DNA from: a virus
Lineage: Duplodnaviria > Heunggongvirae > Uroviricota > Caudoviricetes
Direction: 5' to 3' (one strand)
IMG/VR virus record: IMGVR_UViG_2519899565_000030
DNA length: 4,935 nucleotides
Part shown: one piece after another, positions 489 to 4,935 of the stretch
Numbering within the stretch: the first letter of the stretch is position 1
Layout: each line of letters opens with the position of its first letter
Notes under the pieces: model-generated
Database searches by the model: none
Seen by the model: only the letters and a program-made list of their open reading frames with translations
What the model was told of the DNA's origin: nothing
Position numbers and translations under genes: made by a program

Positions 489-562
489 GCGGGCGTAGTT
501 CAATGGTAGAACAAGAGCTTCCCAAGCTCTATACGAGGGTTCGATTCCCTTCGCCCGCTCCA
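489..562 (+). tRNA. glyU: tRNA-Gly, anticodon CCC (glyU-like), 74 nt with encoded CCA
   Basis: Cloverleaf read directly: acceptor stem GCGGGCG pairs with CGCCCGC, D-arm GTTC/AATGGTA/GAAC, anticodon stem AGAGC/GCTCT with loop TTCCCAA (anticodon CCC), T-arm GAGGG/TTCGATT/CCCTT, discriminator T, CCA at 560-562. Near-identical to E. coli glyU from memory. Confidence 0.95.
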
Positions 563-696: not shown

Positions 697-2975
<2,279 letters not shown>

Positions 2976-2983
2976 GGGGGGGG
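2976..2983. repeat. Homopolymeric G8 tract between P1 and P2; a complementary C6 tract lies at 3018-3023
   Basis: Read directly from the sequence: GGGAAGGGGGGGG upstream of P2 and TCCCCCCGGG downstream of its +1. Confidence 0.9.
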
Positions 2984-3006
2984 ACTAAACTATCACTATA
3001 GGGGAG
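2984..3006 (+). promoter_or_regulatory. P2: phage-type (T7/T3-like) single-subunit RNAP promoter motif, predicted +1 at G3001
   Basis: ACTAAACTATCACTATA|GGGGAG. Positions -8 to +3 (TCACTATAGGG) are identical to the T7 consensus TAATACGACTCACTATAGGGAGA. Positions -12/-11 are A,C as in T3, not C,G as in T7. The 21-mer GACTAAACTATCACTATAGGG (2983-3003) recurs exactly at 3541-3561. Confidence 0.6.
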
Positions 3007-3208
3007 AGACCCTAAGTCCCCCCGGGCTTAATACAGCCACCGACCCACACATTCATTAAGTCTCAGGCTTCCGGTAGCGGACCGATTGGAAACCATCCGC
3101 AATAAGCCTAGTGTTAAATCACCTTGGCCTGAGACCATTCCCTTTAACGTAGCAATCTCTCTCCTTTGACAGGCGGAGAACATCAGACCGCAGCGGAAGT
3201 ATCCGTCT

Positions 3209-3559
3209 ATGCGACCATCGGTGTGCGAGATTGTGAAGAACCAAGACATCATTGCTGAGGTCTGCCATCCATTTGTGGACAGGCGGAAACTCAAAAAGGT
3301 TAGACCAGTGGTGTCTGAGGTTGGAGCTTTGAGCCTGACCAGCAGGCTTGAGGAGACCATGAGTTCATCTTGTTATGGATTGTGTTATCACAATTCCAAT
3401 AAGAAGAACTTTAAGTCCAGCCTCCAGTCCTGTCAGCCCGAAGTATACTACGGTCGCTATGATGTGGTTCTCCATACTTCGGGTCTAACTGGAAGTACTG
3501 AACACTTTCGCGTCAGGTTCTCCGAAGTTCATTCCTGTTTGACTAAACTATCACTATAG
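3209..3559 (+). CDS. Hypothetical small protein (116 aa), uncertain; lies between P2 and P3 and its stop codon TAG is the TAG of the P3 core
   Basis: ORF with a possible SD (GGAAG, 3195-3199) 9 nt before the ATG. No recognisable family and some rare Arg codons. An overlapping antisense ORF exists, so coding status is unproven. Confidence 0.25.
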   Translation: MRPSVCEIVKNQDIIAEVCHPFVDRRKLKKVRPVVSEVGALSLTSRLEETMSSSCYGLCYHNSNKKNFKSSLQSCQPEVYYGRYDVVLHTSGLTGSTEHFRVRFSEVHSCLTKLSL

Positions 3560-3564
3560 GGACC
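3542..3564 (+). promoter_or_regulatory. P3: second exact copy of the phage-type RNAP promoter motif, predicted +1 at G3559; about 306 nt upstream of the Rha-family gene
   Basis: ACTAAACTATCACTATA|GGGACC. Identical to P2 over 3541-3561. Correctly oriented to transcribe the Rha gene and the downstream small ORF. Confidence 0.6.
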
Positions 3565-3864
3565 ATATCTCGCCTCTGACCTCCTGAGAGACGGCAAGCG
3601 AGAAACCGTGGTCCACGCTAGCTTGCTAGCCACCAGCCTCTGGTCAGCCTTTGTGTTCTTTGGTCTCGTGACTTAAGTCTATCACCACACACGCTCGGAC
3701 ATGCTGTCGAACCTTCATCTCTATGGTCATCGCAGACCACTAACCCCAATTACCTCAAGTCATTCTGTTTGCGTCCTGTTGCCTGCTGGTCTCCCTTTAC
3801 GTGGGGGCTTGAGTAGGTCAGTGGGGGTGCGACTTCAGGGTGCAAACAAAAGGAGTACACGTAA

Positions 3865-4593
3865 ATGTCTCAACAAGAAATCAGCGTCATTAACCTCGAC
3901 CAGCTTGTCTCCATGACCTCAGTTGAAATTGCTGAGCTGACAGGCAAGGAGCACCGAAATGTCCTACGTGATATTCGCAATATGGCTGAGGAGCTTAACG
4001 CGCTCAAAACTGAGCAGTGCTCAAAACTGAGCAGTCATATCGGGGTGACTGAAGATGTCTATCTAAACGCGCAGGGGAAACAGCAGCCTCTGTACCGTCT
4101 CGACCGTAAGCATACTTTCATTCTGGTCGCTGGCTATTCCGTTCACCTCCGCGCCAAGTGTTACGACCATATTCAGACGTTAGAGCGTCGAGTCCTTCAA
4201 CTGGAAGACCAGAAGAAGCGAGCAGCCATTCAGTCCGCTAACCGCCGAGGCGTGACTTGGGGCGACTACTGCAAAACCTATGGTCTACCCGCTCAGAAGC
4301 TAATGACCGCACTTCTTCAGCATCGTGGTCTCTTTCGTAAGAACCCAATCAGTAACGAGTGGTCTGTAAATCCAAAGTATTCCGACTGCTTCCGTATCAT
4401 TAAGCCGTCAGACCAGAAGTTCTCAGCAGGTGGTTATAACTTTCGCTTCAACGCTAAGGGATTGGAGGTCTTCGGTAAGCCTGCGATAGTCGATAAACTG
4501 CGAGGCATCCTTATTGCCTTCACTGGCACCGACCAGCAGAAGCAAGAGCATCTCCTGAAGCAAGCCCAATCCGGCAAGCTGGAGGGACTCTAA
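3865..4593 (+). CDS. rha: Rha-family phage regulatory protein (N-terminal Phage_pRha-like domain) with a C-terminal domain of unknown function, 242 aa
   Basis: SD AGGAG (3851-3855) 9 nt before the ATG. N-terminal motifs MTSVEIAELTGKEHRNVLRDIRN ... YLNAQGKQQPLYRLDRKHTFILVAGYS match the Rha domain as I recall it from phage phi80 Rha (IAEAFGKRHDDVLKSIR ... YKNEQGRKQPMYTMTKDGFTFLVMGFTG). Confidence 0.88.
   Translation: MSQQEISVINLDQLVSMTSVEIAELTGKEHRNVLRDIRNMAEELNALKTEQCSKLSSHIGVTEDVYLNAQGKQQPLYRLDRKHTFILVAGYSVHLRAKCYDHIQTLERRVLQLEDQKKRAAIQSANRRGVTWGDYCKTYGLPAQKLMTALLQHRGLFRKNPISNEWSVNPKYSDCFRIIKPSDQKFSAGGYNFRFNAKGLEVFGKPAIVDKLRGILIAFTGTDQQKQEHLLKQAQSGKLEGL
4002..4035 (+). repeat. Perfect tandem direct repeat, 2 x 17 bp (GCTCAAAACTGAGCAGT), inside the Rha CDS
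   Basis: Read directly: 4002-4018 equals 4019-4035. The unit length is not a multiple of 3, so the two copies encode different amino acids (ALKTEQ / CSKLSS) in the variable linker of the Rha domain. Confidence 0.9.
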
Positions 4594-4594
4594 G

Positions 4595-4795
4595 ATGATT
4601 GACCCGCGCACACCTATTGGTCGTGCAACTCTCCGCTACCGTGGTCTGCCTACCCGTCACCTCCTGTCCCTGCTGAGACTTGGAGTCGATAACCCTGATC
4701 GCCCTTACTACAGTCGAGACGAGCTGATAGCGATGCTGGTCGACCGTGATTTGAATAATCAGTTACGTCGAGCCTTTGCGAAACTGGAGTCTTAA
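4595..4795 (+). CDS. Hypothetical small protein (66 aa), apparently translationally coupled to the Rha-family gene
   Basis: SD-like GGAGGGA (4579-4585) about 9 nt before the ATG. The ATG lies 1 nt after the upstream TAA stop. Arg-rich; no recognisable motif. Confidence 0.5.
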   Translation: MIDPRTPIGRATLRYRGLPTRHLLSLLRLGVDNPDRPYYSRDELIAMLVDRDLNNQLRRAFAKLES

Positions 4796-4802
4796 CATCT
4801 CC

Positions 4803-4812
4803 GGAAATTTCC
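4803..4812. promoter_or_regulatory. Perfect 10-bp palindrome GGAAATTTCC in the intergenic region after the 66-aa ORF; possible protein-binding site
   Basis: The sequence is self-complementary. It sits 8 nt after the stop codon and about 115 nt before the next start codon. No T-run follows, so it is not a typical intrinsic terminator. Confidence 0.25.
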
Positions 4813-4925
4813 AGACCTTAACCAACCTTATTTAAAACCTTTTGAGATGACCGATGCGGGGAGACCCGTAGGCATTACTGTGTCTGCGATACCGATAGTC
4901 TCAACTCTCAAGAGGAGTAATTACT

Positions 4926-4935
4926 ATGTCTAGCG
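4926..4935 (+). CDS. Probable 5' start of a further gene running off the window (ATG at 4926)
   Basis: SD AGGAG (4913-4917) 8 nt upstream of the ATG. Only 10 nt of coding sequence are visible. Confidence 0.35.

What the first reader, a model, noticed from the sequence alone, without database searches (positions are those of the whole stretch)
3542..4795. Rha-family regulator operon placed directly under a phage-RNAP promoter: possible infection-sensing switch
P3 is oriented to transcribe the Rha-family gene (3865-4593) and the coupled 66-aa ORF (4595-4795). Rha-family and antirepressor-like proteins are known regulators of phage lytic/lysogenic decisions. Driving one from a T7-type promoter would make its expression conditional on the presence of a phage RNAP. 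In a satellite or island this would be a direct readout of helper-phage infection (induction or abortive defence); in a T7-like prophage it would be a class II-type early/middle gene.
Basis: inference. Interest (0 to 1): 0.75.

Follow-up and report, generated by a model that had tools for sequence, protein, structure and literature searches.

The report
T7-phage-triggered operon of a mini-satellite
The Rha gene sits behind a perfect copy of a T7-like phage's own promoter inside a 6.4-kb mobile island that also carries its own capsid gene, a copy of the phage's DNA-packaging junction and an anti-T7 defence gene, so the island most likely lies silent until such a phage infects the cell and then parasitises it; no such family turned up in the papers I could search.

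Summary
P3 (3542-3564) scores 36.2 bits on a matrix built from the 11 annotated promoters of the Kayfunavirus CR44b. The phage's own promoters score 30.8-37.1, and the best score in shuffled windows is 15.7. P3 faces Rha (Pfam 3.5e-18) and the translationally coupled 66-aa gene. No sigma-70-like promoter or terminator lies between them.

The window is E. coli O26:H11 DNA. It holds the left two-thirds of a 6.4-kb island integrated at tRNA-Gly(CCC), with a 17-bp att repeat.

- **Wider family:** related islands occur in about 7% of complete E. coli genomes and in other Enterobacterales. They keep promoters at the same places but swap the specificity box (T7 exact consensus, K11-type, Kayfunavirus, SRT7-type).
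- **Other parts of the island:** the known anti-T7 gene RAZR/PD-T7-4, a roughly 440-nt structured RNA with covariation, a conserved leader hairpin, and a helper-matched copy of the phage concatemer-junction motif.

Best reading: an undescribed capsid-encoding satellite of virulent T7-group phages, induced by the helper's RNA polymerase. Everything functional is inferred, not shown.

The parts
546..562 (+). attL core: the last 17 nt of tRNA-Gly(CCC) (gene 489-562). Left boundary of the island.
   Evidence: The tRNA was found by ARAGORN and Rfam. The same 17-mer, TCCCTTCGCCCGCTCCA, recurs at L001 29632-29648 as attR. Homology with the Buttiauxella island ends exactly there.
697..2304 (+). Tyrosine integrase, 535 aa.
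   Evidence: Pfam Phage_integrase 2.8e-18. PHROG 1 integrase 2.4e-44.
1204..1219 (+). Concatemer-junction-like motif GTCTCCCTATCTGTAT (class II pause core ATCTGTA at 1212-1218), embedded in the integrase ORF on the promoter strand.
   Evidence: It resembles the right edge of the CR44b terminal repeat, GAGTCTCTATCTGTATAG. T7-promoter islands instead carry 20 of 20 nt of T7 nt 148-167. The motif type tracks the promoter type in all 21 islands that have the motif. It sits in different codons and reading frames in the two integrase families.
2297..2956 (+). Cargo defence gene RAZR (= PD-T7-4): a zinc-finger plus DUF4145/HEPN RNase. It overlaps the integrase stop.
   Evidence: PADLOC PD-T7-4 1.3e-102, full length. 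Pfam DUF4145 1.5e-13. Residues AGN68-70, R146 and H154 are as described for RAZR-Ec in PMC13017515 (sequence). [quoted passage not shown]
2953..2975 (+). P1: a phage-RNA-polymerase promoter-like site of a second specificity (core ACCCACACTATAGGG, +1 about 2970).
   Evidence: The core equals the promoter consensus ATTAACCCACACTATAGGGAGA of E. coli phage SRT7/P1723 and a 38.5-kb IMG/VR phage. It does not score on the Kayfunavirus matrix.
2984..3006 (+). P2: Kayfunavirus-type promoter, in tandem with P1 (+1 = 3001).
   Evidence: 31.7 bits on the CR44b promoter matrix. Conserved in related islands.
3060..3496 (+). Structured non-coding RNA of about 440 nt between P2 and P3.
   Evidence: Near-invariant across genera yet carrying 1-2 nt indels, so ORF 3209-3559 is not a gene. 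RNAalifold predicts 145 pairs, 11 of them with compensatory double changes. One helix has all six pairs exchanged in the window copy. No Rfam family matches, and there is no similarity to CR44b.
3542..3564 (+). P3: Kayfunavirus-type promoter (+1 = 3559) facing the Rha operon. This is the subject of the finding.
   Evidence: 36.2 bits against 30.8-37.1 for the phage's own promoters. It matches CR44b promoters exactly over 22 nt. The position is conserved in other islands with other specificity boxes.
3766..3848 (+). Conserved leader hairpin (3 helices, 26 bp, asymmetric internal loop), ending just before the Shine-Dalgarno sequence AAGGAG (3850-3855).
   Evidence: 98.3% of cells are paired, against 40-52% when the partners are slid. 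Three pairs show compensatory changes and there are many G-U pairs. The covariance model scores 143 bits on the + strand and 18 on the - strand, and has no hit in the T7-like phage genomes searched. It is the most widespread island element, present in 377 of 5426 E. coli genomes.
3865..4593 (+). Rha-family DNA-binding regulator, 242 aa.
   Evidence: Pfam PF09669 3.5e-18. PHROG 10324 2.4e-69. The slot holds a KilA-N protein or other regulators in sister islands.
4595..4795 (+). 66-aa basic protein, translationally coupled to Rha. Function unknown.
   Evidence: It is conserved behind every type of regulator. It forms 41 clusters, all in Enterobacteriaceae and all unnamed. It has no Pfam, PHROG, PADLOC, NCBIfam or phage match.
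4796..4925 (+). Conserved intergenic spacer with a predicted hairpin.
   Evidence: 92-95% identical in all islands, including those with a different regulator. Fold z-score -2.1.
4926..4935 (+). Start of the DUF6971-like (scaffold-like) gene. IS66 separates it from its body right after the start codon (insertion at about 4929).
   Evidence: The IS66 boundaries are L001 24929-27652. The gene continues at L001 27653 with CTG in place of ATG. The intact 163-aa homologue in L040 is 29% identical to a Pfam DUF6971 protein. Downstream lie the 329-aa HK97-fold capsid gene (L001 28217-29206) and a hairpin plus U-run terminator.

Best explanation
The window holds the left part of a roughly 6.4-kb integrative satellite of virulent T7-group phages (family Autographiviridae, subfamily Studiervirinae).

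**Proposed sequence of events.**
1. In uninfected cells the right-hand module is silent, because it has no host promoter.
2. A Kayfunavirus (K1F/CR44b-like) or, through P1, an SRT7-like phage infects and makes its single-subunit RNA polymerase.
3. That enzyme recognises the island's copies of the phage's own promoters.
4. P1 and P2 produce a roughly 440-nt structured RNA.
5. P3 produces one long mRNA. In order it carries a conserved hairpin leader, the Rha-type DNA-binding regulator, the coupled 66-aa protein, a DUF6971-like scaffold-like protein and an HK97-fold capsid protein. It ends at a hairpin plus U-run terminator.

**Inferred roles.**
- The leader hairpin recalls the promoter / RNase III site / gene layout of T7. 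It probably acts in processing or stabilising the mRNA.
- Rha and the 66-aa protein are the early decision makers. They probably act on island excision or on helper gene expression.
- The capsid module builds satellite-sized heads.
- The helper-type concatemer-junction motif inside the integrase gene lets the helper's terminase cut and package island DNA.
- RAZR, next to the integrase, is accessory anti-T7 cargo.

**Shown by sequence analysis:**
- promoter identity;
- strand-specific enrichment of the promoters and exchange of their specificity box;
- RNA covariation;
- the capsid fold;
- att sites;
- matching of the junction motif to the promoter type.

**Inferred only:** transcription by phage polymerase, excision, replication, packaging, and what Rha and the 66-aa protein do.

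In strain 11368 IS66 has cut the scaffold-like gene from its start codon. This copy probably still senses infection but is likely defective for particle formation.
For: - **Promoter quality:**
- **No host promoter or terminator on the + strand in 2900-4935:**
- **Family-wide enrichment:** 69 CACTATAGG sites lie upstream of the leader on the same strand in 25 of 32 loci. Elsewhere in 295 kb there is 1 on that strand and 0 on the other.
- **Exchange of specificity boxes at fixed positions:**
  - the exact T7 23-mer TAATACGACTCACTATAGGGAGA in E. coli W60 and 14EC001;
  - K11-type AATTAGGGCACACTATAGGGAGA;
  - Kayfunavirus and SRT7-type boxes, often in tandem.
- **Leader hairpin covariation and strand asymmetry:**
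- **Island limits and size:** 6.36 kb without IS66, and the same 6.39 kb in Buttiauxella.
- **Capsid fold of the 329-aa protein:**
  - AlphaFold pTM 0.63;
  - Foldseek finds 175 viral hits at E<=1e-3, mostly named capsid or head proteins;
- **Terminator after the capsid gene:** -19.7 kcal/mol, z -5, followed by UUUAUUUU.
- **Junction motif:** 20 of 20 nt identical to T7 nt 148-167 in T7-promoter islands, and the ATCTGTAT type in Kayfunavirus-promoter islands. It is independent of the integrase reading frame.
- **Cargo:** RAZR senses the T7/T3 portal protein.
- **Own knowledge:** the T7 primary origin is two tandem T7 promoters plus an AT-rich stretch. Plasmids carrying a T7 origin and the concatemer junction are packaged into T7 particles (Chung & Hinkle 1990, cited in PMC4281155).
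Against: - There is no experimental evidence of any kind.
- The island encodes no recognisable replication protein, excisionase, portal or terminase. Every step beyond transcription must be borrowed from the helper or carried out by proteins of unknown function.
- The window's non-coding region has no AT-rich origin-like stretch. Apart from the promoters it has no similarity to the CR44b genome.
- The Kayfunavirus-type junction motif is short and differs from CR44b by a 2-nt indel.
- The junction motif lies upstream of the promoters in the integrated state. Polymerase would reach it only after circularisation or concatemer formation.
- Island-length metagenome contigs have no terminal overlap, so they do not show a free form.
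- The capsid model is of medium confidence (mean pLDDT 65.9). HK97-fold proteins also form encapsulins.
- RAZR is an abortive-infection system, which sits awkwardly with a parasite that needs the helper to finish assembly.
Confidence: 0.62

Rival explanations
1. This is a defence island, not a satellite. The phage-polymerase promoters act as an infection sensor that switches on an abortive or interfering response. Rha, the 66-aa protein, the structured RNA and perhaps an encapsulin-like shell would sequester or poison phage components. The island is never packaged.
For: - The neighbouring gene is the proven anti-T7 abortive-infection RNase RAZR.
- The slot after the integrase varies between islands like a defence hotspot: RAZR, an HNH endonuclease, or hypothetical proteins.
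- The promoter arrays cover several phage genera, as a broad sensor would.
- No replication or packaging gene is recognisable.
Against: - The helper-matched concatemer-junction motif is hard to explain without packaging.
- A scaffold-like gene, a capsid-fold gene and a terminator in T7-like order point to head assembly.
- The constant 6.4-kb size, intact att sites and spread across genera and two integration sites indicate active horizontal mobility.
- None of the operon's proteins matches a PADLOC model.
Confidence: 0.22
2. The promoters are chiefly cis-acting DNA signals: a replication origin primed by phage polymerase, and a packaging entry point as at T7 phiOR. They are not primarily expression signals. 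Rha would be expressed from an undetected host promoter, or only incidentally.
For: - The tandem promoters P1/P2 recall the T7 primary origin phi1.1A/B (own knowledge).
- T7-type sister islands have AT-rich ACTTAAAG/ATTAAAGA repeat arrays after the promoters, like the short repeats at the T7 left end.
- Chung & Hinkle 1990: an origin plus the concatemer junction suffice for packaging.
Against: - P3 lies 306 nt upstream of Rha, in the same orientation, with no terminator and no detectable sigma-70 promoter.
- It is followed by an RNA hairpin with G-U-rich covariation on that strand and a strong Shine-Dalgarno sequence, which shows that the + strand RNA is under selection.
- The two roles are not exclusive.
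Confidence: 0.1
3. This is a remnant of an integrated T7-like prophage, with Rha as a class II-type early/middle gene.
For: - T7-type promoters, a capsid-fold gene followed by a terminator, and an integrase next to a tRNA.
- Integrating T7-like phages exist (own knowledge).
Against: - There is no RNA polymerase, DNA polymerase, primase, portal, tail or terminase gene within the att-bounded 6.4 kb.
- The 66-aa, 163-aa and 329-aa proteins have no tblastn hit in 50,697 phage genomes.
- Profile comparison of the 329-aa family with the CR44b capsid protein gp10A gives probability 0.2%.
- The same compact architecture is conserved in several genera and in about 7% of E. coli genomes.
Confidence: 0.03

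Closest known systems
Capsid-forming PICIs (cf-PICIs, e.g. EcCI2 of E. coli)
   Different: - cf-PICIs are larger and also encode a portal, head-tail connectors, a protease/scaffold and a small terminase. They take only tails, from temperate helpers (abstract of 10.1101/2022.09.08.507074).
- This island has only a scaffold-like and a capsid gene, about 6.4 kb in all.
- Its signals point to virulent T7-group helpers and to the helper's RNA polymerase as the trigger.
PICMIs and PLEs (satellites of virulent phages in Vibrio)
   Same: - All are chromosomal islands induced by infection with a virulent phage rather than by prophage induction.
- PICMIs are similarly minimal, and PLEs restrict their helper (abstracts of PMC10803314 and 10.1101/639039).
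   Different: - The abstract states that PICMIs encode no genes for capsid remodelling and package concatemers.
- From my own knowledge, PLEs are about 18 kb, have their own replication initiator, and are induced by a phage protein acting in trans.
- Here induction would be through cis-encoded copies of the helper's promoters, and a capsid gene is present.
T7 transcription units and packaging signals (phi promoters, RNase III sites, the terminator Tphi after gene 10, the concatemer-junction class II pause site, the origin phi1.1A/B)
   Same: - The island reproduces the T7 layout: a 23-bp promoter, a long hairpin before the gene, a strong Shine-Dalgarno sequence, a capsid gene followed by a hairpin plus U-run terminator, tandem promoters, and the ATCTGT(T/A) junction motif.
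- What each of these signals does in T7 is from my own knowledge (Dunn & Studier 1983; Chung & Hinkle 1990).
   Different: - These are signals on a chromosomal island with no phage genes.
- The hairpin is not homologous to any site in the T7-like genomes searched.
- One island carries promoters for several polymerase specificities.
Helper-embedded PICIs (HE-PICI)
   Same: Expression is coupled in cis to helper late transcription rather than by trans-acting derepression (abstract of PMC10111431).
   Different: HE-PICIs sit inside a helper prophage late gene and are read through. Here the island is at a tRNA or ynfE site, and it imitates the promoters of a virulent helper.
Rha / Ant-type phage regulators
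   Same: The N-terminal Rha DNA-binding domain (PF09669), with a full-length match to PHROG 10324 'anti-repressor Ant'.
   Different: - The best cultured-phage relatives are only about 29% identical.
- The slot is interchangeable with KilA-N and other regulators.
- No repressor gene that an antirepressor could target is present in the island.

Membership tests
T7-group (Studiervirinae) phage RNA polymerase promoter | A 23-bp site (-17 to +6) with the conserved core CACTATAGG(G/A) and a genus-specific box at about -12 to -8, scoring like the phage's own promoters. | tested here: met
   P3 scores 36.2 bits and P2 31.7 bits on the CR44b matrix. The phage's own promoters score 30.8-37.1 and the shuffle maximum is 15.7. 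P3 and P2 are exact 22-mers of the CR44b promoters at 15891 and 20112.
T7-group (Studiervirinae) phage RNA polymerase promoter | Transcription initiates at +1 only in the presence of the cognate phage polymerase. | not testable with these tools
   This needs a reporter assay or RNA-seq during infection.
Rha family regulator (Pfam PF09669) | Rha N-terminal DNA-binding domain above the gathering score. | tested here: met
   66.4 bits against a cut-off of 29.9, residues 17-107. NCBIfam TIGR02681 gives 40.8 bits, below its cut-off of 45.95.
Antirepressor (Ant/KilAC, PF03374) | KilAC C-terminal domain above threshold. | tested here: not met
   15.2 bits against a cut-off of 25.3, E 0.028.
Phage satellite (general) | A small integrative element with an integrase and att sites, lacking most virion and replication genes. 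| tested here: met
   The 17-bp attL/attR repeat, a size of 6.36 kb without IS66, and a content of int, cargo, regulator, two morphogenesis genes and non-coding signals only.
Phage satellite (general) | Helper-dependent induction, replication and packaging into infectious particles. | not testable with these tools
   There are only indirect signs: helper promoters, a junction motif and a capsid gene. Island-length metagenome contigs are inconclusive.
cf-PICI | Encodes its own HK97-fold major capsid protein. | tested here: met
cf-PICI | Also encodes a portal, head-tail connectors and a small terminase (a full head and packaging module). | tested here: not met
   Only four ORFs follow the regulator region. 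None matches portal, terminase or connector families in Pfam or PHROGs.
P4-like satellite | Marker genes psu, delta, sid, the alpha primase and cos. | tested here: not met
   No such Pfam or PHROG matches among the island ORFs.
T7-like prophage | Single-subunit RNA polymerase, DNA polymerase, portal, tail and terminase genes. | tested here: not met
   They are absent between attL and attR. The core proteins have no phage homologues.
RAZR / PD-T7-4 defence system (neighbouring gene 2297-2956) | Full-length match to the PD-T7-4 model, an N-terminal zinc finger, and a DUF4145/HEPN domain with R146 and H154. | tested here: met
   PADLOC 1.3e-102 over 1-209 of 211. The residues were read from the translation and compared with PMC13017515.

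The most novel reading that the evidence does not exclude
A previously undescribed, widespread family of roughly 6.4-kb capsid-encoding satellites of virulent T7-group phages. It is present in about 7% of complete E. coli genomes and also in Shigella, Citrobacter, Leclercia, Buttiauxella, Enterobacter, Klebsiella, Serratia and Rouxiella.

The islands would be induced not by a phage protein acting on a repressor, but by carrying copies of the helper's own promoters. These often form arrays covering several polymerase specificities (T7, K11-type, Kayfunavirus, SRT7-type), so that the helper's RNA polymerase itself is the trigger.

The islands would also use a helper-matched concatemer-junction motif hidden inside the integrase ORF, a new roughly 440-nt structured RNA, and a conserved leader hairpin. 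RAZR and other defence genes ride along as cargo.
Probability: 0.55. Interest if true: 0.9.

Novelty: new variant of a known kind. Interest (0 to 1): 0.85.

Why it matters
- **A gap in the T7 model system.** In the papers I could search, T7-like phages, among the best-studied viruses and widely used in biotechnology and phage therapy, have no reported satellites.
- **A different induction logic.** A satellite that listens directly for the helper's RNA polymerase through copied promoters would differ from the known schemes of derepression by phage proteins or read-through from a prophage.
- **Context for a defence gene.** It would explain why the anti-T7 gene RAZR 'often overlaps an integrase gene'.
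- **New material to work with.** It would supply a new large structured RNA and a minimal capsid system.
- **A practical warning.** Some natural E. coli chromosomes contain perfect T7, K11-type and K1F-type promoters.
- **Relevance to phage therapy.** Such islands could block or be spread by therapeutic Autographiviridae, so they could affect how well those phages work.

Tried and rejected
- **First AlphaFold run** of the 329-aa protein, with 13 close homologues, failed (pLDDT 36.7). It worked only after adding the 30%-identical Klebsiella/Serratia/W60 subfamily.
- **Sequence searches gave nothing** for the 329-aa protein (PDB phmmer), for Rha against PDB, or for the 66-, 163- and 329-aa proteins by tblastn against phages.
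- **Profile comparison** of the 329-aa family with the CR44b capsid protein gp10A found no relation.
- **blastn of the non-coding region** against phage genomes and against CR44b found only the promoters. Mimicry of the Kayfunavirus CCTACAGT end repeats is therefore not supported for this island.
- **Composition profile** found no AT-rich origin-like stretch in the window.
- **Rfam** found only the tRNA.
- **The leader covariance model** has no hit in T7-like genomes, so the hairpin is not a copied phage RNase III site.
- **Contigs of 6.4-6.8 kb** carrying the capsid gene looked like free satellite genomes. Two of them are chromosomal fragments. The others are island-length contigs without terminal overlap, as expected from strain heterogeneity.
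- **A 6,412-bp IMG/VR contig** with a promoter-like 16-mer is unrelated.
- **The ORFs 3209-3559 (+) and 3028-3360 (-)** are rejected as genes, because of frameshifting indels between islands and the absence of any family match.
- **Eight of the ten literature searches** looked for T7-group satellites or chromosomal T7 promoters and found no description. The library is incomplete, so this is not proof of novelty.
Full report
**1. What the window is**

The 4935 bases are 100% identical to E. coli O26:H11 str. 11368 (NC_013361.1 3899184-3904118, reverse strand) and to many other Shiga-toxin-producing strains. 123 of 5426 complete E. coli genomes hold at least 80% of the window.

The layout is as follows:
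- the 3' end of actS (60-410);
- tRNA-Gly(CCC) (489-562);
- a tyrosine integrase (697-2304);
- a DUF4145 gene (2297-2956);
- 908 nt without a credible ORF;
- the Rha gene (3865-4593);
- a 66-aa gene (4595-4795);
- the first codons of another gene (from 4926).

**2.

- ACTATCACTATAGGG occurs exactly at 2989 and 3547, and with three mismatches at 2958. All three sites are on the + strand. Shuffles give 0.14 expected.
- The longer motif AAACTATCACTATAGGG is found in IMG/VR almost only in 39-40 kb contigs. One of these is Citrobacter phage CR44b, genus Kayfunavirus. Their recurrent sites read (A/C)CTAAACTATCACTATAGG(G/A).
- With a matrix from the 11 promoters annotated in CR44b, P3 (3542-3564) scores 36.2 bits and P2 (2984-3006) 31.7 bits. 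The phage's own sites score 30.8-37.1, and the best of 200 shuffled windows scores 15.7.
- P1 has another specificity. Its core ACCCACACTATAGGG is the promoter core of E. coli phage SRT7/P1723 (ATTAACCCACACTATAGGGAGA).
- Rha is a genuine Rha-domain protein (PF09669, 3.5e-18; PHROG 10324, 2.4e-69).
- The 66-aa ORF starts one base after the Rha stop, behind GGAGGGA. It is conserved in 41 unnamed clusters of Enterobacteriaceae.
- Between P3 (+1 = 3559) and the Rha ATG lie 306 nt. They hold no sigma-70-like promoter and no intrinsic terminator on the + strand.

**3. The element is a 6.4-kb att-bounded island**

- The last 17 nt of the tRNA recur at L001 29632-29648. Homology with a Buttiauxella copy stops exactly there.
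- The island measures 9.09 kb in strain 11368. This includes a 2.72-kb IS66 inserted right after the start codon of the gene that begins at window 4926.
- Without IS66 it measures 6.36 kb. The Buttiauxella copy measures 6.39 kb.
- The conserved order is:
  1. int;
  2. a variable cargo gene;
  3. tandem promoters;
  4. non-coding region;
  5. promoter(s);
  6. leader;
  7. regulator;
  8. a small 55-68-aa protein;
  9. a 163-aa protein;
  10. a 329-375-aa protein;
  11. terminator;
  12. attR.

  This order is seen.
- Copies sit at tRNA-Gly(CCC) or inside ynfE.
- They occur in E. coli, Shigella, Citrobacter, Leclercia and Buttiauxella.
- The capsid-like protein family extends to Klebsiella, Serratia and Rouxiella. 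The 66-aa family extends to Enterobacter.
- At least the leader is present in 377 of 5426 complete E. coli genomes.

**4. Promoters are a family trait, and their specificity is exchanged**

- E. coli W60 carries four sites in the same intergenic position: AATTAGGGCACACTATAGGGGGA, the exact T7 consensus TAATACGACTCACTATAGGGAGA, AATTAGGGCACACTATAGGGAGA (which I recall, from my own knowledge, as the phage K11 promoter consensus) and AATTAGGTAGCACTATAGGGAGA.
- Strain 14EC001 has the exact T7 promoter.
- UMNK88 has AAGCACTCACTATAGGGGA plus a Kayfunavirus site.
- Leclercia and CT29 have two tandem pairs, TATACCCTCACTATAGGGA plus a Kayfunavirus site.
- A metagenome scan with a leader pattern brought 35 more stretches.
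- Over all 32 distinct leader-bearing loci with enough upstream sequence, 25 have CACTATAGG within 1.3 kb upstream on the leader strand, 69 sites in all. In the remaining 295 kb there is 1 on that strand and none on the other.
- Three of the seven loci without a site are unrelated chance matches. The others carry variant cores such as CAGTATAGGG.
- In Shigella flexneri and E. coli ECMA0423 an insertion sequence has landed inside P3.
- Position, orientation and the initiating sequence are kept while the recognition box is swapped. That is what selection for recognition by different phage polymerases would produce.

**5. The leader is an RNA element**

- The roughly 108 nt before the Shine-Dalgarno sequence are the most conserved part of the whole family.
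- An alignment of nine islands with four different regulators folds into one long hairpin (window 3766-3848). It has 26 pairs in three helices.
- 98.3% of cells are paired, against 40-52% when the partners are slid.
- Three pairs show compensatory double changes, and many pairs are G-U. In the covariation-score control, 0 of 500 shuffles reach the observed value.
- A covariance model scores 143 bits on the + strand and 18 on the - strand. It hits only islands, not CR44b, SRT7 or other T7-like contigs.
- The order promoter, long hairpin with an internal loop, strong Shine-Dalgarno sequence, gene is the layout of T7 transcription units with RNase III sites (own knowledge: Dunn & Studier 1983). 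Whether RNase III cuts here is untested.

**6. The operon continues into a morphogenesis module**

- The 163-aa protein is 29% identical to a Pfam DUF6971 protein in the W60-type island. It has a charged coiled-coil-like C-terminal half.
- The 329-aa protein is homologous to the 375-aa protein of W60-type islands (hhalign probability 99.6%).
- With the deeper alignment, AlphaFold gave pTM 0.63 with a confident core.
- Foldseek against viral models gave 175 hits at E<=1e-3, mostly named major capsid or head proteins.
- The capsid gene is followed by a strong hairpin plus UUUAUUUU (-19.7 kcal/mol, z -5).
- In T7 the terminator Tphi likewise follows capsid gene 10 (own knowledge).
- None of these proteins has a detectable relative in 50,697 phage genomes. 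The capsid family shows no sequence relation to CR44b gp10A.

**7. Further signals outside the finding's coordinates**

*(a) The cargo gene.*
- The DUF4145 gene is PD-T7-4, renamed RAZR (PADLOC 1.3e-102). It carries AGN68-70, R146 and H154 as published.
- RAZR is an abortive-infection HEPN RNase activated by the portal proteins of T7 and T3 (PMC13017515).
- Vassallo et al. noted that it 'often overlaps an integrase gene' (PMC9519451).

*(b) The structured RNA.*
- The stretch between P2 and P3 is nearly invariant across genera but has frameshifting indels.
- RNAalifold predicts 145 pairs, 11 of them with compensatory changes.
- In one helix all six pairs differ in the window copy (CAATCTC/GAGATTG against GTTATC/GATAAC). 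An inner hairpin is also rebuilt from a different sequence.
- It matches no Rfam family.

*(c) The concatemer-junction motif.*
- Each island carries this motif on the promoter strand, inside the integrase ORF.
- T7-promoter islands match T7 nt 148-167 (CTCTGTGTCCCTATCTGTTA) at 20 of 20 positions. This spans the right edge of the 160-bp terminal repeat and the ATCTGTT class II pause signal.
- Kayfunavirus-promoter islands, including the window at 1204-1219, have TCTCCCTATCTGTAT. This resembles the CR44b repeat edge GAGTCTCTATCTGTATAG.
- Promoter type and motif type agree in all 21 islands that have the motif.
- The motif lies at codon 167-177 in one reading frame in tRNA-Gly-type integrases, and at codon 21 in another frame in ynfE-type integrases.
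- Plasmids with a T7 origin and the concatemer junction are packaged by T7 (Chung & Hinkle 1990, listed in PMC4281155). The role of polymerase pausing at the junction in packaging is from my own knowledge.

**8. Interpretation**

The simplest account of all these features is a satellite of virulent T7-group phages. Its right-hand module is transcribed only by the helper's RNA polymerase.
- Rha and the 66-aa protein are the first products of a polycistronic message that goes on to a scaffold-like and a capsid protein.
- What Rha does is unknown. My best guess is control of island excision or integrase expression, or repression of helper late genes.
  - The basis is that the slot always holds a phage-type DNA-binding regulator (Rha, KilA-N and others).
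  - The island also has no repressor for an antirepressor to target.
- The small basic 66-aa protein could be a recombination directionality factor. This is pure inference.
- In strain 11368 IS66 separates the scaffold-like gene from its ATG and Shine-Dalgarno sequence. This copy probably cannot build heads, while P3, Rha and the 66-aa gene remain intact.

**9. Rivals**

- **A defence-only island.** A polymerase-triggered response without mobilisation is not excluded (0.22). It explains the RAZR cargo and the multi-specific sensors. It does not explain the junction motif or the head module.
- **Promoters as origin and packaging signals.** This reading is compatible with the main model rather than opposed to it.
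- **A T7-like prophage remnant.** This is rejected.
- **Chance.** This is excluded.

**10. Novelty**

- RAZR is known, and the Rha domain is ordinary.
- Eight of the ten full-text searches looked for T7-group satellites or chromosomal T7 promoters. None found a satellite of T7-like phages, chromosomal islands bearing T7-group promoters, or this capsid, DUF6971 or RNA family.
- The library lacks most subscription papers, so prior description cannot be excluded.
- I rate it a new variant of a known kind (phage satellites), with an unusual trigger.

Noticed in passing
window 2297-2956: The DUF4145 gene is the published anti-T7 abortive-infection RNase RAZR (PD-T7-4): PADLOC 1.3e-102, with R146, H154 and AGN68-70 conserved. 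It overlaps the integrase stop codon. In sister islands the same slot holds an HNH endonuclease or hypothetical proteins, like a defence hotspot.
   Followed up: yes
window 3060-3496: A structured non-coding RNA of about 440 nt lies downstream of the tandem promoters P1/P2. It has 145 predicted pairs, 11 with compensatory changes, and one six-pair helix fully exchanged in this copy. No Rfam family matches. The 116-aa ORF 3209-3559 is spurious. The direct repeat GACAGGCGG(A/G) occurs at about 3171 and 3283.
   Followed up: partly
window 1204-1219: GTCTCCCTATCTGTAT inside the integrase ORF resembles the right edge of the Kayfunavirus terminal repeat and the class II pause signal. T7-promoter islands instead carry 20 of 20 nt of the T7 concatemer junction. 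The motif type tracks the promoter type and is independent of the reading frame.
   Followed up: yes
window 2953-2975: P1 is a promoter-like site of a different specificity (SRT7/P1723-type core ACCCACACTATAGGG), in tandem with the Kayfunavirus-type P2. It overlaps the RAZR stop codon.
   Followed up: yes
window 4926-4935; L001 24929-27652: An IS66-family element is inserted right after the ATG of the DUF6971-like gene. It separates the gene from its start codon and Shine-Dalgarno sequence, so this strain's island is probably defective for the head module.
   Followed up: yes
L044 7013-8111 (E. coli W60); L046 7240-7900 (E. coli 14EC001): Sister islands carry the exact 23-bp T7 consensus promoter and K11-type promoters in a natural E. 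coli chromosome. These are followed by AT-rich arrays of ACTTAAAG/ATTAAAGA repeats that recall the short repeats at the T7 left end and the T7 origin. L046 also has three tandem AATACGA(A/C)T(C/T) half-sites before a degenerate promoter.
   Followed up: partly
L038 and L039 about 8423-9673: In E. coli ECMA0423 and Shigella flexneri SFBU1023 a roughly 1.25-kb insertion sequence has landed inside P3, removing its specificity box. These copies also lack RAZR.
   Followed up: partly
L001 29304-29384 and about 29548-29575: Between the terminator and attR lies a 26-aa hydrophobic ORF (MDLHKVYLVVFLLKLGLVVWLWAIRR) with a strong Shine-Dalgarno sequence. There is also a degenerate promoter-like sequence, GTGTGACTATCACTACAACC. 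Both are conserved in Buttiauxella.
   Followed up: no
L086, L087, L090, L095, L098, L105 (metagenome contigs of 6.45-6.75 kb): Several gut metagenome contigs consist of just the island from end to end, without terminal overlap. This is compatible either with strain heterogeneity in assembly or with a free form, and is not decisive.
   Followed up: partly
L045, L047, L069, L070, L042, L043: A second integrase type inserts the same kind of island inside ynfE, splitting that gene.
   Followed up: partly
window 4050-4100 / Rha residues 186-201: The Rha-type and KilA-N-type regulators share only a short C-terminal motif, S-x-GG-x4-FN-x-KGLE (pairwise E 0.003). It may be a common interaction surface.
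   Followed up: no
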